Notes under the pieces: model-generated
The model's database searches: none
What the model was told of the DNA's origin: nothing
The model's input: only the letters and a program-made list of their open reading frames with translations
Shown: positions 6,544 through 16,365 of the stretch, one piece after another
How the letters are laid out: every line of letters begins with the position of its first letter
Position numbering within the stretch: the stretch's first letter is position 1
Source: Candidatus Saccharimonadota bacterium
GTDB lineage: Bacteria > Bacteroidota > Bacteroidia > Cytophagales > Amoebophilaceae
DNA length: 32,000 bases
Assembly: GCF_965196625.1 (NCBI RefSeq)
Contig: NZ_OZ239769.1
Span: 450,001-482,000, forward strand
Reading direction: 5' to 3'
Translations under genes and position numbers: made by a program

Positions 6544-9500
6544 CTAATCCTTTCCCATAGCTACATTGAATACCTTTTCAGTATGTAACTGTAATTCATG
6601 AGCAATATCGGCTAGTTGTATTTTCATCGCCAATGGCAGATAAAATTTTTGAATGAACCTTGCTTTTTCTATCTGTTTTTCAACAGTGTGTCCAGAAATT
6701 GTTCGTGCATTATGTAAAACATCTGCCAGCCTAACCAGAAGGGCATCATGATTTTTATCAGCTATGAGCGCTTCGATATAGGCCGTATAATCCTCTTTTT
6801 GGTTCGGTAGTTCTTTTTCCAAGCGCGCTGCAGCCGATACAATCTGTGCAATAGAAGGACCAAATAGAGTCGTTAAGCCTGCTGCTGTAAGGGGGGTATT
6901 TTGTACTACGTCGTGGACAAGTCCAGCAATAATAACCTTCGAATCCTGCGTTAAAGTGAGTAAAATAGAGGCCACCGCCATAGGATGTAAGTAAAATAGT
7001 TCACCTGTTTTTCTTCTTTGGGTGGTATAGTAGACTTTAATCAGCTGTAACGCATCCATAATGGCGTCAACATTGAGTCCTTTTTTTGCTTTAACTTTTT
7101 CTAAAAAAGCTACTTCTTCTTGCATACTGATTGGGTCCAATACCATCCTTTGGGTATACACGACAGGTGAAAGCGTAGCAAACGCCTTAGTAATTTCTTT
7201 GACGTTTACAGGTATGACATATAAGTGGGTAATTTCTGACTCAGAAGAGAATCGCTCATAATAGCCATAATGTGCATGCACAATATGTTGATTTTCTAAA
7301 TCTATTTTTTCTTCACTTTGCCCTAATATCTGAATATCTGCCATTTCTGCCACTTTATAGGTTGGACGTATAGTAGGCAATCTTATGGAAGTTGTGATCA
7401 CAAAACTGATCGCATTTATTTTTTGTACCTTCCCCTGTAAAAGCGTTAACCGATAGCCTAGCTGTGTATCATCTATATGTATATAGATATCTTTTTTTTG
7501 ATGGCTATATAGGGATGCCTGTAGGCTACAGGAGTGTAAACTGCTGATGATTAGCTGCTTGATGCTTTCTATGGCACACTGTATATAGAGGTGTTTTGTA
7601 TTGATCACTACATAAGGTGCATCATATATATTGCTAATCTTTATCGCATCGAAACATTCGGCTAATAGTTGATCAATACTAATCCAATTGGTAACTAAAT
7701 GGAGATTGTGCTTCAAGTGTTGAAAGATGCTGTTAAAATATTCATTTAACCGAATGGTTTGCACTGAATGCGTAATGAGACGCTGGTCGGGTTGTTCTAA
7801 TCGAATGAGTTGATCGTTCAATTGGCATATGATGTAACTGCTTTCATAGGCAAGTGCTTCTACTTGTTGTTTATTAAAAAACTGCCTTGCATTTTGTTCT
7901 TCTTTTTCACTGGTTAATGCTTGTATAATGGATAAAAGCTTATTTAAACCATTGTTGTGGTATAAAAAGCCACCCACTAAAACAAATAGCATAAATAGGC
8001 CATATGCAATATTCACATTCAAGCCCAAGCAGCAATCTATCCATCTGATATTACCATCCACATAATGGGGTAAGATCCAGACCATGATCACACTCATAAT
8101 CATACCAAACCATATCCTGATAAATGGAGTGATAAAGATCGATAAGAAAAGGTTAAGCACAAAAATGATAGCATGCAAATGGGTTAACTTATTAAGCATA
8201 GCCATGCCAGTACCTACCAAGAAAAAAAAATAAATATGGCTTAATGGCCATATCACTGAAGCAATTTTACGAATATATGATTGAGGGAAAATAAAGGTAT
8301 ATACTAAGAAAAATGTGGCAACAAAGAGACTGGGCAAAAGAATGAGTATTTCTAATCTAGTATGCCATATGGGATTACTGAAAAAAGTATAAAAAGAGCC
8401 ATATCCTGTGAGCAGAATATAAAAGCTAAAAAGTATATAAGGTAAGCTATCCTTAGGTAGTTGTTTCTCAAGGTAGTCTAAAAGATTGAATGTATGCATC
8501 CTTTGCAAAGTGATATTAGAGAGGTGCTTCCATAATGGTGGTGGCTTGGGGACGGCTTCTTGTACCAAACTATTGGCTAAGTAGTGCTGGCTTGGTATGC
8601 TTTTGCGCTTGAAAAATTGGATAACCATCATACTGAGTAGATTCATCAGCATAGCTGGAAGAATGCTATTGATACCTGCATTAGGTACAAAACACAACCA
8701 TGCCATAGTGGTTAAACCACCTGTTAACATACCTATTAAAACACTACATGGATGTAAGGAAATACCCATTAGAGAGAGTAGCAGGGGTAGACTCACAACT
8801 GCTTTAAATAAAATAATGGCTATCCATATGCATTCATCTTTAGTGTATAGTGCAAGAAGCGCTGCAATTGCGCCTACTATAACTTGATATAGAAACGAAT
8901 GCTTCGCCCATTTAAAAAGATTGGGTAGGTCATTTGTCATTAAAACAGTCGCTGCATGCAAGTTTGCGCCTGCTGTAGAGATGGTTAAAGCAGCAACACT
9001 AATCATAAATAGCCCCTTTAGCTGCACACAGCCGAAGGGAATGGTTGATACCATCAGCTTGCCAGAATTTTTCTGTACCAACAGGGCCACCCATAGTAAA
9101 AGCAAGTTGATGCTGAATGAAAAAAAACCGGCACTATTAAAAGAGCGTTTTATTTGCGCAGCATGCTCGGAAATTAAAATACGATCTACCTGAGCAGGAT
9201 AAAAAGCGGGTATGGAAAAAATGATAAAATAAATCATATAGTCCAGTGGAGTAGCATGAAAATGCGTCAAGCTATTCCAAGAGGCTTTAATGGCTAAAGC
9301 AATATGCGCTTGATCAGCATGATATTGGTTTGCCATATATTTCCATAAGTTCCAAGCGGTGATGGGTAACAGTATGCCAAAGGAAGCACAACGTACTACA
9401 CGTATCAGCGCTAGCGGTTGTATATGATTTGACCCCACACCAAACATTACAACTAGCGCTGCAATAAGTAGGCTATAACCAGGTTGAATGGCAAAAAACC

Positions 9501-9894
9501 AGGTTATAGCCATTGAGAGTATTTTGAATTGCATCGCAGCTACCGCAGCACTGTGCAATATACCGCATATGGCTACAATTTTCTGAACAGCGTTCCCATA
9601 AAACCGCCCCATTATTTCTGCTACCGAGCGATTATTTAAAAAAAGATGCAAACGATGTGCCAATAAGTTGCCTATTATAAAATAACTGATCATACCACCT
9701 CCCAAGCGCAATAAACCATCTATATCGAGCCGATTACATAACACTTCCCCTCCATAAGTTATGGCTAAAATAGCCGCTGTAATATGGGGGGTAGTAAAGC
9801 GCCTATCCAGAACACTAGAATGTTTAATAGAACGGATACCAACGAATAGATTAATCAGTAAAAAAAGAATAAAAATAACGCTGTCTAAATGCAT
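6544..9894 (-). CDS. Large polytopic membrane protein: sodium:solute-symporter-like N-terminal TM bundle, a second TM cluster, a degenerate histidine-kinase-like core and a C-terminal SpoT/Rel-type HD (ppGpp-hydrolase-type) domain
   Basis: 1116-aa ORF with many hydrophobic helices over residues about 1-660. The C-terminus carries GELFYLHPMAVASILL...IIAGLVHDVVQNT...FGPSIAQIV...LVRLADVLHNARTI. This matches the H...HD...D(RLHN) motifs of the RelA/SpoT hydrolase domain. No synthetase domain follows. Confidence 0.85.
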   Translation of the reverse strand: MHLDSVIFILFLLINLFVGIRSIKHSSVLDRRFTTPHITAAILAITYGGEVLCNRLDIDGLLRLGGGMISYFIIGNLLAHRLHLFLNNRSVAEIMGRFYGNAVQKIVAICGILHSAAVAAMQFKILSMAITWFFAIQPGYSLLIAALVVMFGVGSNHIQPLALIRVVRCASFGILLPITAWNLWKYMANQYHADQAHIALAIKASWNSLTHFHATPLDYMIYFIIFSIPAFYPAQVDRILISEHAAQIKRSFNSAGFFSFSINLLLLWVALLVQKNSGKLMVSTIPFGCVQLKGLFMISVAALTISTAGANLHAATVLMTNDLPNLFKWAKHSFLYQVIVGAIAALLALYTKDECIWIAIILFKAVVSLPLLLSLMGISLHPCSVLIGMLTGGLTTMAWLCFVPNAGINSILPAMLMNLLSMMVIQFFKRKSIPSQHYLANSLVQEAVPKPPPLWKHLSNITLQRMHTFNLLDYLEKQLPKDSLPYILFSFYILLTGYGSFYTFFSNPIWHTRLEILILLPSLFVATFFLVYTFIFPQSYIRKIASVIWPLSHIYFFFLVGTGMAMLNKLTHLHAIIFVLNLFLSIFITPFIRIWFGMIMSVIMVWILPHYVDGNIRWIDCCLGLNVNIAYGLFMLFVLVGGFLYHNNGLNKLLSIIQALTSEKEEQNARQFFNKQQVEALAYESSYIICQLNDQLIRLEQPDQRLITHSVQTIRLNEYFNSIFQHLKHNLHLVTNWISIDQLLAECFDAIKISNIYDAPYVVINTKHLYIQCAIESIKQLIISSLHSCSLQASLYSHQKKDIYIHIDDTQLGYRLTLLQGKVQKINAISFVITTSIRLPTIRPTYKVAEMADIQILGQSEEKIDLENQHIVHAHYGYYERFSSESEITHLYVIPVNVKEITKAFATLSPVVYTQRMVLDPISMQEEVAFLEKVKAKKGLNVDAIMDALQLIKVYYTTQRRKTGELFYLHPMAVASILLTLTQDSKVIIAGLVHDVVQNTPLTAAGLTTLFGPSIAQIVSAAARLEKELPNQKEDYTAYIEALIADKNHDALLVRLADVLHNARTISGHTVEKQIEKARFIQKFYLPLAMKIQLADIAHELQLHTEKVFNVAMGKD

Positions 9895-10045: not shown

Positions 10046-10456
10046 TTAAGATAGTTCTTCATCTAGCAAAGCGCTAAAATGTTGCAACGATCTAATAACA
10101 GCCCTATTTACAATAGAATAGTGGATCTCTTCCTCTTTTCCAGTATAAACATATCCTATTAAAAAGACAAATTTAGAACGGGTGGTATCTAAGGCATCAT
10201 CCAATATATATTTATTGATGCGATAGGCCTCCCTAAGTAAGCGCTTCACTTTATTGCGCTGGACAGCAGAAGGAAAGTTCCGTTTAGAGGCAGAAAAAAG
10301 AACTTTATTGGATAAAAGCAGTTCTTTTTTTTGGAGGAGATAAAATACAGTACAAGGATGTAATTTTAAAATTTTTCCTTGCCGAAAAAGCATTTGTATA
10401 TGTTTCCGATTAGCTAGTCTATTGCATTTGGGCAGCCTATTTTTTCCCATAACCAA
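10046..10456 (-). CDS. rnpA: Ribonuclease P protein component
   Basis: It has the ASKRNFPSAVQRNKVKRLLREAYR motif and lies immediately downstream of rpmH, the conserved rpmH-rnpA arrangement. Confidence 0.9.
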   Translation of the reverse strand: MVMGKNRLPKCNRLANRKHIQMLFRQGKILKLHPCTVFYLLQKKELLLSNKVLFSASKRNFPSAVQRNKVKRLLREAYRINKYILDDALDTTRSKFVFLIGYVYTGKEEEIHYSIVNRAVIRSLQHFSALLDEELS

Positions 10457-13212: not shown

Positions 13213-14556
13213 TTAGGGATGAAACATACCAACCAGTTGATAGAGATCAAATTCTGCTTTTTTTACCTTAAAAGCCTGTTCTATTAAACCGATTTCTACT
13301 TTTTGGGTAGCCTCTTCTGCTTCATGTAACTCAAGCAGCTTTACTTGCTTGAGCCGATACTTCTCTCTTACAAAAACCAACTTTTGTTTGCTTATTTTCA
13401 GTTGTTCCTCTCCTACTTTATAGGCATCTAAGGCATGTCGATAGTTCCATTTTTTATCTTCCAAACTACCCTCTAAAGCCAATTTTTGCTGCTTTAACGC
13501 AAGCTTTGCATTATTGAATAGCATCCTTTCCTGTTTAACCTTCGCAGGCATGAGCAGCAAAGCAGCTATATCAATAGTAACTCCAACAGTCCCAACCCAT
13601 TTACTAGCTTTATGATCACGATACCATTTATCATCTTTTAAATCATATAGAAAACCATTCGAACAAAAACTACCAGATAGGCTTAAACAAGAAAGCGGAT
13701 AAGCCTTTGCTCTACTTAACTTAGTTGCTGCTATGGCGACTTGTTTTTCTTGTATCGCAGTCTCCAAATCAACCACTTTTTCTTTTGTAACCGCTTTAAT
13801 ATCCCATATAGGTTGCACAGAAATGGTTGATTGAACCAATGTTTCTTCATTGAGGGGTTTACCAAGTATTAAATTTAAACTTCGGCGCTTTGCTTTCAAG
13901 GCTTCTTGCCGCTCTAATAAGCTTAATTTTACCTGTTTAAGCGCCAGTTGCGCATCCAAACAATCTATCTTAGAGATGCGCCCTACCTTTAACTTCTCTT
14001 CCTCTATCTTTAATCTAGCTATAGCAAGCTTGAGTAAGCTATTGGATAATTCCCATTTTTTTTGCGCCAATGCCAGTTCATAATAAGCGGTCACTACCTG
14101 CTGTAGTTCTTTTTCTACTGATTTTTTTGCAACTAGCTTATAAAGAAAATTATTTTGACCATGTATTTTAGTTTGGAACATTTTATCAAATAGTGATGCG
14201 AGCTCCCATTTTAATGTGAAAACAGGGGTAGATCGAATGCGGTATTTCATTTTTACAATGTCTGGCTGGGAGCCGTTTTGCTCAGAAGATGGTAGGGGTG
14301 ATTTCCGAATGCCTTCATAAGCGAGCATAAAAAGCGCCTGAGGCGCCCATATGCGGAAATTATCTATTCTGCCCGAAAGCATCGATTGCTTTTTAGTATT
14401 TTCGGCCATCTGAATATTTAAATTATCCTTTAAGGCAGTCTGTATGGCCTCTTCCAAACTTATGGGCTTGTTTTTTGCCTGTGCTAGGCTATGGCCTAAA
14501 AGGATTAGGCTGCAGAGCATGCTTAAACGTAAAAATTTTTTTTTATTTAGCCACAT
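13213..14556 (-). CDS. TolC-family outer-membrane efflux protein
   Basis: Two long heptad-rich halves are typical of OEP/TolC proteins. A signal peptide MWLNKKKFLRLSMLCSLILLGHSLAQA follows if the start is at 14556; the track ORF extends to 14616 and would overlap the upstream gene. It is the last gene of the efflux operon. Confidence 0.8.
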   Translation of the reverse strand: MWLNKKKFLRLSMLCSLILLGHSLAQAKNKPISLEEAIQTALKDNLNIQMAENTKKQSMLSGRIDNFRIWAPQALFMLAYEGIRKSPLPSSEQNGSQPDIVKMKYRIRSTPVFTLKWELASLFDKMFQTKIHGQNNFLYKLVAKKSVEKELQQVVTAYYELALAQKKWELSNSLLKLAIARLKIEEEKLKVGRISKIDCLDAQLALKQVKLSLLERQEALKAKRRSLNLILGKPLNEETLVQSTISVQPIWDIKAVTKEKVVDLETAIQEKQVAIAATKLSRAKAYPLSCLSLSGSFCSNGFLYDLKDDKWYRDHKASKWVGTVGVTIDIAALLLMPAKVKQERMLFNNAKLALKQQKLALEGSLEDKKWNYRHALDAYKVGEEQLKISKQKLVFVREKYRLKQVKLLELHEAEEATQKVEIGLIEQAFKVKKAEFDLYQLVGMFHP

Positions 14557-14573
14557 CTTAAGTAAAATTTTTA

Positions 14574-15233
14574 TTAGACAATTTTTCCATCTACAATTTC
14601 TTGAATACTGTTGCATTGCCGTGCTACCTGCACAGAGTGTGTTACGATAAGAATCGTATTGCCCTCTCTATTCATCTCTTTCAGTAAAGCCATGATTTCA
14701 TGCGCAGTACTGCTATCTAAAGATCCAGTTGGCTCATCTGCTAGGATTAAAGGAGGAGCGGTTACCAACGCACGTGCAATGGCTACCCTTTGTTGTTGGC
14801 CACCTGAAAGAGCATCTGGTTTATGGTTAGCATAGGCAGATAAGCCAACTTTATCCAGCATGGCCCACGCACGCTTGGAACGTTCTTCCCTTTCTATACC
14901 TTGATAATAGAGCGGCAAAGCTACATTCTCCAAAGCCGTTTTAAAAGGAATCAAATGAAACCGCTGAAAGATAAAGCCAATTAACTGGTTTCTATAGCTA
15001 CTGGCTTCTTGGTTAGAAAGATTTTTCATGTGCACACCATTAAGATAGTAATCTCCATGGTTATAATCATCCAATATACCAATTATATTCAATAACGTAG
15101 ATTTTCCAGCACCAGATTGCCCCATTAAGGCAACGAGGTCTCCCTTTTCCAGGTGAAAATTTATACCAGTAAGTACCTCCCGAATAACGGTTCCATTTTG
15201 ATAGGATTTATATAAGTCCTGAATCTGAATCAT
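14574..15233 (-). CDS. ABC transporter ATP-binding protein (MacB/LolD-type)
   Basis: Walker [10 protein letters not shown], signature [15 protein letters not shown], Walker [13 protein letters not shown] and an H-loop (VTHS). Confidence 0.92.
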
Positions 15234-15234
15234 G

Positions 15235-16365
15235 CTAGGTTTCTACAATTAAATGATCTGCTTCTGTAAGACCTTCTTTTATCTCAACATAAAGGCCATC
15301 TGAGAGCCCCAACACTACATTTTTTTTAACCACTTTATCTGCACACAAACATTTTACGAAATAGGTTGTGCCTTCTGTTTGAATCATGCTTTCTGAAACA
15401 GCCAACACATCGTCCACTTGTTCTAGAATCACTTCTGCTAGCGCTAAATAACCTGCACGTAGCGTCACCTTTGATTTTTTGGGTTTATGTACCACCCCTT
15501 CTATTTCAAATTTAATTTCTTCATCTTTAAATTCTTTTTCACTGGCTTTTGGTGCAATTTTGGTTAAAGTAACTTGCAATTGCTCGTCATTAAAAGCATT
15601 TAATGAAGCAGTAAAGGTCATCCCTTTGGTAAGATGTACCACATCTAATTCACTGACCTTAGCTGAGAACAAGAAACGATCTATATCTCCAATCAGGGCT
15701 ACAGTGGCGCCAGAACCTTTTTCACTGACGGCCTGCACCATACTGCCTTCTTTAACGGATAAGTCTAAAATCGTACCTTTTATAGTAGCTTTAACGATGT
15801 TGGCACTTTCCCCTTTTGCAGTAGTATAGCCACGCTGACTAAGTTCTAACGCCTTCTGGGCCGCAGTCCATTCTTCTTTGGCTTGCGCCCAGGTTGCCAA
15901 AGCAGCTTCATAATCTTCTTTAGCCAACATCTTTTTACTAAAAAGCTGCTTACTTCTTAAATATTTAGCTCTGGCTTGATTGAGATGAATAGCAGCCAAA
16001 CGCAACTTGCTTGCTGCAGCCTCAACCTTTTGGGGGCTAGGCTGTATTTTAATACGGGCAATAGGGGTGCCCTGTTGCACAGCATCACCTACACGTACAA
16101 ATAATTTCTCTACCACGCCGGTAACATGCGCCTCTACCTGCACTTCCTTATGGGGTATGAGGCTACCAGAAAAAACTTTTTTTCGAACAATCGTTCTTCG
16201 AGTGGGTTGCGTGGTTTGAAAGGTTGGCTGATCTAACTTGCGCCAAAAGGCTCGTGGATTTAACCTGTTCCATTGATCTTTATATACTTTAGAGTAGGCA
16301 AAAGCGCCTCCCGTGAAGATTATAATGGTTAAAATAAATTTGGTTCTTGTACGCATTTTATTCAT
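15235..16365 (-). CDS. HlyD/MacA-family periplasmic adaptor (membrane fusion protein)
   Basis: N-terminal anchor, lipoyl-like VGDAVQQGTPIARI, a long alpha-hairpin segment, then a beta-barrel region. It sits between the permease and ATPase genes. Confidence 0.85.
   Translation of the reverse strand: MNKMRTRTKFILTIIIFTGGAFAYSKVYKDQWNRLNPRAFWRKLDQPTFQTTQPTRRTIVRKKVFSGSLIPHKEVQVEAHVTGVVEKLFVRVGDAVQQGTPIARIKIQPSPQKVEAAASKLRLAAIHLNQARAKYLRSKQLFSKKMLAKEDYEAALATWAQAKEEWTAAQKALELSQRGYTTAKGESANIVKATIKGTILDLSVKEGSMVQAVSEKGSGATVALIGDIDRFLFSAKVSELDVVHLTKGMTFTASLNAFNDEQLQVTLTKIAPKASEKEFKDEEIKFEIEGVVHKPKKSKVTLRAGYLALAEVILEQVDDVLAVSESMIQTEGTTYFVKCLCADKVVKKNVVLGLSDGLYVEIKEGLTEADHLIVET

What the first reader, a model, noticed from the sequence alone, without database searches (positions are those of the whole stretch)
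6544..9894. Transporter-like sensor fused to a stand-alone SpoT-type (p)ppGpp hydrolase domain
The protein has four parts. The N-terminal 440 residues or so look like a sodium:solute symporter (SLC5-type) helix bundle. A second cluster of about 6 TM helices follows. Next comes a cytoplasmic segment with a histidine-kinase-like layout: a possible H-box relic ITHSVQTIRL, then IDQLLAECFDAIK...IQCAIESIKQLIISSLHS, but no N/G1/G2 ATP-binding boxes that I can see. The C-terminal 190 residues or so carry the RelA/SpoT hydrolase motifs (HP....., HDVVQNT, RLADVLHNARTI) with no synthetase, TGS or ACT domains. SLC5-like domains are known as sensory inputs of kinases such as CbrA. Small alarmone hydrolases are normally soluble single-domain proteins. 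A membrane-embedded, possibly solute-gated alarmone hydrolase would link nutrient availability in the host compartment directly to (p)ppGpp or related nucleotide turnover. I am not aware of this architecture being characterised.
Basis: partly seen in the sequence, partly recalled or inferred. Interest (0 to 1): 0.7.

Follow-up and report, generated by a model that had tools for sequence, protein, structure and literature searches.

The report
Membrane sensor with inactivated SpoT domain
This Cardinium endosymbiont gene encodes a 19-helix membrane receptor, descended from transporter-like sensor kinases, whose kinase core is dead and whose SpoT-type end domain lacks two residues needed to cleave the alarmone (p)ppGpp, so it probably binds rather than hydrolyses.

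Summary
The ORF (6544-9894, minus strand, 1116 aa) is real and is 100% identical to an "HD domain-containing protein" of the Cardinium endosymbiont of Nabis limbatus.
- an SLC5/SSF-like 13-helix bundle;
- six further TM helices;
- a DHp+CA histidine-kinase core with every catalytic box lost (hhalign 98.5% to sister kinases; all top fold hits are kinases);
- a C-terminal RelA/SpoT-type HD domain with no synthetase, TGS or ACT.

Two corrections change the interpretation.

First, the architecture is not rare. It is an expanded, generically annotated family in Cardinium, Amoebophilaceae and small-genome Cytophagales MAGs: about 65 full-length clusters at 50% identity and 39 genomic loci. Two papers mention it only in passing.

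Second, this protein's "HDVVQNT" is not an intact hydrolase motif. The invariant ED diad is QN and the ADR arginine is V. All 12 Cardinium orthologues show changes at these positions, while about 41 other family members are canonical. In A. baumannii SpoT, E82Q abolishes activity and D83N cripples it. Metal ligands and guanine-contact residues are kept, and the HD is the best conserved domain.

Most likely this is a kinase-derived receptor with a non-hydrolytic, nucleotide-binding pseudo-SpoT output. I could not test whether Cardinium makes (p)ppGpp.

The parts
6544..9894 (-). Whole gene, 1116 aa plus stop. It is the orthologue of the Cardinium 'HD domain-containing protein'.
   Evidence: ORF list. 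100% identity to the protein of Cardinium endosymbiont of Nabis limbatus, and 48-74% identity to full-length orthologues in other Cardinium.
8605..9894 (-). SLC5/SSF-like 13-TM bundle (aa 1-430). It is divergent and falls below the Pfam threshold.
   Evidence: AF2 helices. Foldseek hits to CHT1, SiaT, NIS, SGLT and vSGLT. BLASTP E 2e-23 to the SSF-histidine kinase P0016. PF00474 hits in homologues P0014 and P0015. No PF00474 hit for the query itself.
8446..8604 (-). Basic cytoplasmic loop (aa 431-483). Low model confidence and the least conserved segment.
   Evidence: pLDDT 42-50. Mean identity among Cardinium orthologues is 0.46.
7954..8445 (-). Second membrane module of six TM helices (aa 484-647). 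It is shared with the sister histidine kinases and no Pfam family covers it.
   Evidence: Hydropathy peaks. AF2 helices 484-502, 508-534, 539-567, 572-588, 591-611 and 626-647. The alignment with P0016 extends to residue 608.
7696..7953 (-). DHp-like helical hairpin (aa 648-733) with no phospho-acceptor histidine.
   Evidence: hhalign against the sister-kinase core. AF2 helices 626-697 and 702-730. There is no His in the H-box-equivalent stretch QFFNKQQVEALAYES.
7195..7695 (-). CA-like alpha/beta domain (aa 734-900), a pseudo-HATPase. N box, G1 and G2 are all absent. It carries the family signature AHYGY...YVIP.
   Evidence: hhalign 98.5%. The best 50 PDB fold matches are all histidine-kinase DHp/CA structures or proteins containing that module. 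No HATPase_c hit in Pfam. G877 and P895 are invariant and H875 and Y876 are nearly invariant (>=90%) across 67 family members. Translation checked.
7063..7194 (-). Linker between the CA-like and HD domains (aa 901-944).
   Evidence: AF2 model. Conserved among Cardinium orthologues at 0.67 mean identity.
6547..7062 (-). RelA/SpoT-type HD domain (aa 945-1116). Metal ligands are kept but the catalytic ED diad is lost.
   Evidence: PF13328 E 6e-19. TIGR00691 matches the N-terminal part only. PDB Rel/SpoT hits. Residue table.
6895..6915 (-). HDVVQNT: the mutated HDxxED motif. H994 and D995 are metal ligands. Q998 and N999 sit where the invariant Glu-Asp diad should be.
   Evidence: Translation. Mapping to RelSeq H77, D78, E81, D82. 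Family table. SpoT E82Q and D83N data.
6709..6729 (-). LADVLHN: D1058 is a metal ligand, V1059 replaces the conserved Arg (RelSeq R145), and N1062 is kept.
   Evidence: Translation. Mapping. In the 67-member table R is present in 51 and V/A/T in all 12 Cardinium orthologues.

Best explanation
The gene encodes a polytopic inner-membrane receptor that descends from SLC5-type sensor histidine kinases of Bacteroidota.

Shown by the analyses here:
- An SLC5/SSF-like 13-TM bundle plus a 6-TM module forms the input. The same membrane part occurs in sister proteins that still carry HisKA and HATPase_c.
- The former kinase core (DHp hairpin plus CA domain) is retained as a fold but has lost the phospho-acceptor His and all ATP-binding boxes. 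It cannot work by phosphotransfer.
- A RelA/SpoT-type HD domain replaces the usual output. In most members of this Amoebophilaceae-centred family, that HD has every catalytic residue.
- In the clade holding all Cardinium orthologues, including this gene, the Glu-Asp diad is Gln/Lys/Arg-Asn and the Arg next to the metal-binding Asp is Val/Ala/Thr. The four metal ligands and the residues that contact guanine are kept.

Inferred:
- The pseudo-kinase core serves as the dimeric transmission scaffold that links the membrane input to the HD domain.
- The HD domain of this protein no longer hydrolyses (p)ppGpp at a useful rate.
- It acts as a conserved nucleotide-binding or partner-binding pseudo-enzyme. 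Either it reports occupancy or the conformational state of the SLC5-like domain to the cytoplasm, or it lets a cytoplasmic nucleotide modulate the membrane domain.
- Canonical paralogues of the family are the probable signal-regulated (p)ppGpp hydrolases.
For: Architecture: Pfam and NCBIfam; AF2 at pLDDT 80.5; Foldseek hits to SLC5 transporters and Rel/SpoT HD.

Kinase ancestry:
- BLASTP to the SSF-HisKA-HATPase-receiver protein P0016 over residues 3-608, E 2e-23.
- About 45 of the top 150 profile hits are true SSF+HisKA+HATPase_c kinases.
- hhalign of the middle region against their kinase core gives probability 98.5%, E 2.8e-14.
- A model of the middle region alone retrieves only histidine-kinase DHp/CA structures or proteins containing that module. 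RetS is the best hit.

Loss of catalysis:
- Residue mapping to RelSeq.
- All 12 Cardinium orthologues have E81->Q/K/R, D82->N and R145->V/A/T. About 41 other full-length representatives are fully canonical.
- The nearest non-Cardinium relatives, P0019 and P0021, have lost metal ligands as well and form one NJ clade with Cardinium.
- SpoT(Ab) E82Q has no activity. D83N is poor with Mg2+ (PMC11554896).
- hMESH1 E65A and D66K are compromised.
- RelA, which lacks HDxxED, is an accepted pseudo-hydrolase that still has a regulatory role (PMC8012599).

Still under selection:
- The HD is the most conserved domain among Cardinium orthologues, with mean identity 0.71 and 43% invariant columns. The SSF-like part is at 0.54.
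- The RelSeq residues that contact pppGpp (R44, K45, S46, N148, T151) correspond to R961, K962, T963, N1062 and T1065 here.

Link of the family to alarmone metabolism: in MAG locus L022, a 387-aa HD+RelA_SpoT synthetase ORF lies 48 bp upstream of a family member on the same strand.
Against: - No biochemical data exist for any family member.
- Gln and Asn are isosteric with Glu and Asp, and SpoT D83N regained activity at millimolar Mn2+. Residual or metal-dependent activity cannot be excluded.
- Nucleotide binding by the pseudo-HD is inferred only from residue conservation.
- The direction of signalling, from membrane to HD or from HD to membrane, is unknown.
- I could not establish whether this genome encodes any (p)ppGpp synthetase.
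- The orthologue in Cardinium of Oedothorax gibbosus is broken after 716 codons. This suggests the cytoplasmic part can be dispensable, or it reflects an assembly error.
- The NJ tree is a simple distance tree with no support values.
Confidence: 0.55

Rival explanations
1. One reading: the protein is an active, membrane-anchored, solute-gated (p)ppGpp (or related alarmone) hydrolase.
For: - HD_4 and spoT_relA homology.
- All four metal ligands (H970, H994, D995, D1058) plus R961 and N1062 are kept.
- The HD domain is strongly conserved.
- Canonical paralogues exist, and in one MAG a family member sits beside a synthetase gene.
- SpoT D83N is partly rescued by high Mn2+.
Against: - Q998 and N999 replace the invariant ED diad. 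E82Q alone abolishes SpoT activity, and E65A inactivates MESH1.
- V1059 replaces the conserved Arg.
- More divergent Cardinium orthologues carry Lys or Arg at the Glu position, so that position is not held for catalysis.
- The sister sequences P0019 and P0021 have lost their metal ligands yet keep the domain.
Confidence: 0.12
2. The HD domain has become a different enzyme. It would use the retained 2H2D metal centre on another phospho-ester substrate, for example a 3'- or 2'-phosphorylated nucleotide or cofactor as MESH1 does with NADPH. It would no longer need the ED diad.
For: - The metal ligands are intact and the domain is under strong constraint.
- Other HD phosphohydrolases work with a 2H2D centre alone, and RSH hydrolases show shifts in substrate (MESH1 on NADPH and CoA).
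Against: - MESH1 also needs its ED residues for NADPH phosphatase activity.
- No compensating acidic residue is evident in the alignment.
- The guanine-contact residues are unchanged, which argues against a new substrate pocket.
Confidence: 0.15
3. The protein is primarily an SLC5 transporter importing a host metabolite. The cytoplasmic pseudo-kinase and pseudo-HD are only a regulatory or anchoring tail, so the signalling reading is overstated.
For: - The SLC5 fold is confidently predicted.
- Cardinium depends on imported metabolites and encodes many transporters (PMC3486910).
- The CbrA SLC5 domain is reported to have transport activity (PMC7096432, listed).
- Some family members lack the HD domain altogether (P0036, P0050, P0058, P0060, P0065, P0092).
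Against: - The SSF-like part is the least conserved folded domain among Cardinium orthologues, at 0.54 against 0.70-0.71 for CA-like and HD.
- It falls below the Pfam SSF threshold and has deletions in the first loops.
- The membrane module is otherwise found fused to signalling outputs.
Confidence: 0.13
4. The gene is a decaying remnant of the Amoebophilaceae family expansion, on its way to becoming a pseudogene in a reduced genome.
For: - Catalytic residues have been lost in both the kinase and the hydrolase parts.
- The orthologue is interrupted in Cardinium of Oedothorax gibbosus.
- The second paralogue is patchy or truncated among Cardinium: 965 aa with no HD in cEper1.
Against: - An intact full-length ORF is present in this genome and in at least 11 other Cardinium lineages spanning 48-74% identity.
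- The altered HD is the best conserved domain.
- The position next to rnpA is conserved.
Confidence: 0.05

Closest known systems
SLC5/STAC sensor histidine kinases (CbrA, CrbS, RpuS)
   Same: An N-terminal SLC5/SSF-type helix bundle serves as the sensory or transport input, fused to a cytoplasmic DHp-CA transmitter. The true-kinase sisters of this family (P0016, P0082, P0087, P0100) have SSF+HisKA+HATPase_c.
   Different: - No STAC or PAS domain was detected here. Six extra TM helices connect the SLC5 part to the DHp.
- The kinase core lacks the His and the N, G1 and G2 boxes.
- The output is an RSH-type HD domain rather than phosphotransfer to a response regulator.
RSH hydrolase domains: long Rel/SpoT and small alarmone hydrolases (Mesh1, PbcSpo, rickSpo)
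   Same: - HD_4 fold.
- 2H2D metal ligands.
- R44, K45, N148 and T151 equivalents.
- Sequence is closest to the HD of long Rel enzymes (E about 1e-20) rather than to Mesh1 (E about 1e-6).
- Atkinson et al. 2011 placed the Amoebophilus expansion in rickSpo.
   Different: - The HD is the C-terminal part of a 1116-aa, 19-TM protein, not a small soluble single-domain enzyme.
- The ED diad and the Arg after D144 are replaced.
- I did not test assignment of this protein to rickSpo with that study's HMMs.
RelA pseudo-hydrolase domain (gamma/beta-proteobacteria)
   Same: An RSH HD domain that has lost HDxxED yet is retained and conserved because it has a non-catalytic role (PMC8012599).
   Different: - RelA's pseudo-HD has also lost the HD metal ligands, and it regulates an adjacent synthetase domain.
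- Here the metal ligands are kept and there is no synthetase domain in the protein.
Non-phosphorylating histidine-kinase-like signalling proteins such as RetS
   Same: A DHp-CA fold is used for signalling without canonical autophosphorylation. The RetS kinase region is the best structural match of the middle domain.
   Different: RetS acts by binding another kinase (GacS). I have no evidence for such a partner here, and the similarity is at fold level only (12-13% identity).

Membership tests
RelA/SpoT homologue (RSH) hydrolase domain (Pfam HD_4, PF13328) | Significant sequence match to the HD_4 / spoT_relA N-terminal model | tested here: met
   PF13328 E 6.2e-19, 68.7 bits against a cut-off of 27.2. 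TIGR00691 positions 2-158, E 3e-28. Rel/SpoT PDB chains E about 1e-20. Structural match at rmsd 2.4-3.9 A.
RelA/SpoT homologue (RSH) hydrolase domain (Pfam HD_4, PF13328) | 2H2D metal-binding residues (RelSeq H53, H77, D78, D144) | tested here: met
   H970, H994, D995 and D1058 are present in all Cardinium orthologues.
Catalytically active (p)ppGpp hydrolase (SpoT/Rel HD, small alarmone hydrolases) | Invariant Glu-Asp diad of HDxxED (RelSeq E81 and D82; SpoT-Ab E82 and D83; hMESH1 E65 and D66) | tested here: not met
   Q998 and N999. E82Q is inactive and D83N is poor. E65A and D66K are compromised.
Catalytically active (p)ppGpp hydrolase (SpoT/Rel HD, small alarmone hydrolases) | Measured Mn2+/Mg2+-dependent hydrolysis of the 3'-diphosphate | not testable with these tools
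   This needs the purified protein.
Small alarmone hydrolase (SAH) class | Small soluble protein consisting of the HD domain only | tested here: not met
   1116 aa with 19 predicted TM helices and a pseudo-kinase core upstream of the HD.
Long RSH (Rel/RelA/SpoT) | Synthetase (PF04607), TGS and ACT/RRM domains after the HD | tested here: not met
   No such Pfam or NCBIfam hits. TIGR00691 and PRK11092 match only their first ~160-185 positions, and the protein ends after the HD.
Sodium:solute symporter family (SLC5, PF00474, TC 2.A.21) | Sequence match to PF00474 at the gathering threshold | tested here: not met
   The query has no hit at E<=1. Homologues P0014, P0015, P0016 and the L027 paralogue do pass, so the region is a divergent homologue.
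Sodium:solute symporter family (SLC5, PF00474, TC 2.A.21) | LeuT-type SLC5 fold | tested here: met
   The AF2 model matches CHT1, SiaT, NIS, SMCT1, SGLT1/2 and vSGLT with E 6e-10 to 1e-5 and target TM-score 0.54-0.67.
Sodium:solute symporter family (SLC5, PF00474, TC 2.A.21) | Na+-coupled solute transport and an intact Na2 site | not tested
   S306 is invariant in A1 and at least 90% conserved across the family, within the 'STA' stretch that resembles the SSF TM8 motif. I did not align it to a solved Na2 site.
Sensor histidine kinase (HisKA + HATPase_c) | DHp/CA fold homologous to kinase cores | tested here: met
   hhalign probability 98.5%, E 2.8e-14 against 34 sister kinase cores. All top 50 Foldseek matches are histidine-kinase DHp/CA structures or proteins containing that module.
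Sensor histidine kinase (HisKA + HATPase_c) | Phospho-acceptor His in the H box, plus N, G1 and G2 ATP-binding boxes | tested here: not met
   No HisKA or HATPase_c Pfam hit. In the hhalign register the H box, N-box Asn, DxGxG and GxGxG all align to non-matching residues. No conserved His is found in that stretch across the family.
SLC5/STAC histidine kinases (CbrA/CrbS type) | STAC domain linking SLC5 to the cytoplasmic signalling domains | tested here: inconclusive
   No Pfam domain was reported between SSF and the DHp in the query or in any relative scanned. The AF2 model shows six TM helices there instead. I did not confirm that the Pfam copy used contains a STAC model.

The most novel reading that the evidence does not exclude
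The Cardinium-wide orthologue is an alarmone (or related nucleotide) receptor rather than an enzyme. In this reading, a SpoT-derived pseudo-hydrolase binds but does not cleave (p)ppGpp. Through the dead kinase scaffold, it couples cytoplasmic nucleotide status to the conformational cycle of an SLC5-type membrane domain, or the reverse. That would be a new class of (p)ppGpp effector, evolved by inactivating the hydrolase in an endosymbiont lineage that may no longer run a classical stringent response.
Probability: 0.15. Interest if true: 0.8.

Novelty: new variant of a known kind. Interest (0 to 1): 0.55.

Why it matters
(p)ppGpp hydrolases are generally treated as soluble enzymes, either long RSH proteins or small alarmone hydrolases. 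An expanded family that wires a SpoT-type domain to a transporter-like membrane sensor through a dead kinase core would be a direct, one-protein route from solute availability to alarmone turnover. It occurs in obligate intracellular Bacteroidota (Amoebophilus, Cardinium and relatives), organisms that cannot be manipulated genetically.

The Cardinium copy adds a natural experiment. The same two substitutions that biochemists engineer to kill SpoT (E->Q, D->N) are fixed in the main Cardinium clade, and other non-acidic residues with Asn occupy these positions in the divergent lineages. Even so, the domain is the best conserved part of the protein. This points to a selected non-catalytic role for an RSH hydrolase fold.

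The finding also corrects database names, such as 'bifunctional (p)ppGpp synthase/hydrolase RelA', that would mislead metabolic reconstructions of these symbionts.

Tried and rejected
- Sequence search of the middle region against the PDB with a 9-sequence profile found nothing meaningful (best E 0.35). Homology to kinases emerged only from profile-profile comparison with sister kinases and from fold search.
- A second word-index protein search, using the alignment, returned the same 16 proteins. The exhaustive representative search was needed to see the family.
Its His is not conserved, and it lies about 35 residues downstream of the H-box-equivalent stretch.
- I could not settle whether Cardinium has a (p)ppGpp synthetase:
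  - Literature searches found only Prokka-style 'relA/spoT' labels for this same family.
  - The supplements of the 2020 RSH census are not held.
  - No long RSH labelled Cardinium appeared in the three protein searches, which is weak negative evidence.
  - A long RSH hit, P0205, lies on an unlabelled contig next to rpoZ. I inferred that this is probably not a relative.
  - A local tblastn of that Rel against all fetched loci found a synthetase only in MAG locus L022.
- I considered dN/dS between orthologues but did not run it. At 48-74% protein identity, synonymous sites are expected to be saturated. I used per-domain amino-acid conservation instead.
- The neighbouring genes give no functional link: rnpA upstream, unannotated ORFs downstream.

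Full report
**The observation**

The window carries one uninterrupted ORF at 6544..9894 on the minus strand, 1116 aa, starting with ATG. It is 100% identical to an NCBI "HD domain-containing protein" of the Cardinium endosymbiont of Nabis limbatus. Full-length orthologues at 48-74% identity occur in other Cardinium strains and in metagenome contigs. The alignment of 13 homologues starts at the same Met. The window has 30-46% G+C. rnpA lies directly upstream on the same strand. Other genes in the window include a MacB/TolC-type efflux cluster, lnt, fabH, accC and fabF. None of these suggests a functional link.

**Domain anatomy**

On the query, Pfam finds only HD_4 at residues 948-1091 (E 6e-19). 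NCBIfam matches only the first ~160 positions of the RelA/SpoT model.

*N-terminal bundle.* The N-terminus gets no SSF hit at E<=1. However, residues 3-608 align with a protein that is SSF+HisKA+HATPase_c+receiver (BLASTP E 2e-23). Distant full-length homologues pass PF00474. An AlphaFold2 model built on 67 family sequences has mean pLDDT 80.5. It shows:
- 13 helices at 3-428;
- a poorly predicted basic loop at 429-483;
- six further TM helices at 484-647;
- a long helix running out of the last TM (626-697) with a return helix (702-730);
- an alpha/beta domain at 736-895;
- an all-helical domain at 921-1115.

Foldseek against the PDB returns SLC5 transporters for the N-terminal bundle: CHT1, SiaT, NIS, SMCT1, SGLT1/2 and vSGLT, with E 6e-10 to 1e-5 and target TM-score 0.54-0.67. 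It returns Rel/SpoT hydrolase domains for the C-terminus, at rmsd 2.4-3.9 A over about 190 columns.

*Middle region.* A 9-sequence profile found nothing in the PDB by sequence. The exhaustive representative search supplied sister proteins that share the whole membrane part but still carry HisKA and HATPase_c. A profile of 72 middle regions aligned to a profile of 34 sister kinase cores with hhalign probability 98.5%, E 2.8e-14, over 218 columns.

In that register, the H-box His, the N-box Asn, the G1 DxGxG and the G2 GxGxG all face non-matching residues. No conserved His is present in the family at the H-box position.

A model of the middle region alone has pLDDT 60 overall and 65-89 in the CA-like part. 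It retrieves only histidine-kinase DHp/CA structures, or proteins containing that module, among the 50 best PDB matches. RetS is the best hit, followed by ThkA, CckA, EnvZ, HK853, NtrB and VanS.

His candidate H-box relic ITHSVQTIRL is not: the His is not conserved even within Cardinium, and it sits downstream of the H-box-equivalent stretch.

**The family**

The profile search of 1.84 billion representatives gave 2323 hits at E<=1e-30. Among the best 150:
- about 65 are full-length (1090-1200 aa) proteins with the same four-part architecture;
- about 45 are true SSF-kinases of about 930 aa;
- about 10 have the SSF part and pseudo-kinase but no HD.

Named members come from Cardinium and Amoebophilaceae. 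Their labels include "HD domain-containing protein", "Na+/proline symporter" and "Bifunctional (p)ppGpp synthase/hydrolase RelA".

A scan of one genome per GTDB species found 39 loci. All are in Cardinium or in Amoebophilaceae, Cytophagales or unclassified Bacteroidota MAGs. The complete genomes among them are small (1.06-1.45 Mb), and several genomes hold more than one paralogue.

Two papers touch on this. Brown et al. 2018 note 18 homologues of "spoT ... /sodium glucose cotransporter" in Amoebophilus and 7, 3 and 2 in three Cardinium strains. Atkinson et al. 2011 list Amoebophilus as "Rel + rickSpo expansion", with 15 RSHs, and do not mention membrane domains. I found no paper that characterises the architecture.

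**The hydrolase active site**

Alignment to RelSeq (1VJ7) gives this mapping:

| RelSeq | This protein |
|---|---|
| R44 | R961 |
| K45 | K962 |
| H53 | H970 |
| H77 | H994 |
| D78 | D995 |
| E81 | Q998 |
| D82 | N999 |
| D144 | D1058 |
| R145 | V1059 |
| N148 | N1062 |
| T151 | T1065 |

I tabulated these positions across 67 full-length family members:
- About 41 non-Cardinium representatives are fully canonical.
- All 12 Cardinium orthologues have Q/K/R at the Glu position, N at the Asp position and V/A/T at the Arg position. Their metal ligands are intact.
- About 11 other members have lost metal ligands too.

In an NJ tree, the Cardinium orthologues group with P0019 and P0021 (one is a named Amoebophilaceae MAG protein, the other an unlabelled metagenome sequence). 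Both lack the ED diad and also some metal ligands. Other degenerate HD domains are scattered through otherwise canonical clades.

Published experiments bear directly on these substitutions:
- In A. baumannii SpoT, E82Q abolishes hydrolysis. D83N is poor with Mg2+ and only partly rescued by millimolar Mn2+. The authors regard the ED diad as essential and as the ligand of a second metal (PMC11554896).
- hMESH1 E65A and D66K are severely compromised.
- RelA, which lacks HDxxED, is the accepted pseudo-hydrolase (PMC8012599).

"HDVVQNT" is thus a naturally inactivated motif, not a hydrolase motif.

**The domain is not decaying**

Among 11 Cardinium orthologues, the HD is the most conserved domain: mean pairwise identity 0.71, with 43% invariant columns. 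The CA-like domain follows at 0.70. The SSF-like bundle is at 0.54. The residues that contact the guanine of pppGpp in RelSeq (R44, K45, S46, N148, T151; PMC13299517) are conserved or conservatively replaced here. This pattern fits a binding-competent, catalysis-incompetent module. Binding itself is inferred, not shown.

**Paralogues and the link to alarmones**

Cardinium cBtQ1 has the intact orthologue (L004, 1117 aa) and a second family member (L027). L027 has strong SSF and HD_4 hits and canonical HDTIEDT and LADRLHN motifs.

That paralogue was found only in cBtQ1, in cEper1 (965 aa, no HD) and on one metagenome contig. No protein of the Nabis limbatus symbiont appeared among its hits. This is weak evidence that the second paralogue is absent from this genome.

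In the MAG locus L022, a 387-aa HD+RelA_SpoT synthetase ORF lies 48 bp upstream of a family member on the same strand. This supports a connection between the family and (p)ppGpp metabolism.

The orthologue in Cardinium of Oedothorax gibbosus is interrupted after 716 codons.

I could not determine whether this Cardinium encodes any (p)ppGpp synthetase.

**Interpretation**

What the data show:
- The protein is a receptor derived from SLC5-type sensor histidine kinases.
- Its kinase core survives as a fold only.
- Its output is a SpoT-type HD domain that has lost the ED diad in the whole Cardinium clade yet remains under strong constraint.

What I infer:
- The pseudo-kinase acts as the dimeric transmission scaffold.
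- The HD domain no longer hydrolyses (p)ppGpp at a useful rate.
- It works by binding a nucleotide or a partner.

The rivals are a residually active hydrolase, a re-purposed phosphohydrolase, a transporter with a regulatory tail, and gene decay. I rank each lower, for the reasons given under each.

It is untested.

**Novelty and score**

The building blocks are known kinds: SLC5-sensor kinases, RSH hydrolases, pseudo-kinases and pseudo-hydrolases. The combination is uncharacterised experimentally, but it is common in this bacterial family and has been glimpsed in two papers. I therefore rate it a new variant of a known kind.

The natural E->Q/D->N pseudo-SpoT, conserved across Cardinium, is the most interesting element.

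Interest is 0.55. It is not low, because the family offers a testable link between membrane sensing and alarmone biology in unculturable symbionts.

Noticed in passing
window 78-728 (-): A 216-aa ORF with ankyrin repeats followed by a C-terminal RING finger (zf-RING_2). This is a eukaryote-like candidate E3-ligase effector.
   Followed up: no
window 1860-2456 (+) and 4191-4502 (+): Two ORFs made of eukaryote-type C2H2 zinc fingers (zf-C2H2, zf-H2C2_2) in the AT-rich left end of the window, at 30-32% G+C. This is unusual for a bacterium. They may be effectors or host-derived genes.
   Followed up: no
L022 599-1762 (+) and 1810-5313 (+): In an uncultured Cytophagales MAG, a 387-aa HD+RelA_SpoT synthetase protein with no TGS or ACT lies 48 bp upstream of a 1167-aa SSF...HD family member on the same strand. 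They are probably an operon.
   Followed up: partly
L027 5971-9009 (+) (Cardinium cBtQ1): A second family paralogue in Cardinium with canonical HDTIEDT and LADRLHN motifs and strong SSF and HD_4 hits. Its ORF starts at SSF model position 115, so it may be N-terminally shortened. The cEper1 counterpart (P0175, 965 aa) has no HD.
   Followed up: partly
L006 5995-9430 (+) (Cardinium of Oedothorax gibbosus): The orthologue is split: a 716-aa ORF followed by fragments of 150 and 104 aa. tblastn still matches residues 1-1116 at 68% identity. This is either a real pseudogene or an assembly frameshift.
   Followed up: partly
family alignment A4 (67 sequences): HD domains of this family have lost catalytic or metal-binding residues repeatedly in separate clades: P0025/27/38, P0028, P0030, P0037, P0048, P0106 and P0151. 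The strongest family-wide signature lies instead in the dead CA domain, AHYGY...YVIP: G877 and P895 are invariant, and H875 and Y876 are >=90% conserved.
   Followed up: partly
window 10046-10456 (-); L004 5428-5832; L006 5446-5850: The RNase P protein gene rnpA sits directly upstream of the gene in the window. A 134-aa ORF occupies the same position in two other Cardinium genomes, so the synteny appears conserved. I did not scan those two ORFs against Pfam.
   Followed up: partly
window 1133-1519 (+): A 128-aa ORF with a PD-(D/E)XK_9 nuclease-superfamily hit, lying among short ORF fragments at 1520-5555. It may be the remains of a mobile element.
   Followed up: no
window 13213-18872 (-): A complete MacB-type efflux cluster: a TolC-like OEP, an ABC ATPase, an HlyD-type adaptor and two MacB/FtsX permeases. 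A XerC/D-type integrase gene follows at 18903-19847.
   Followed up: no
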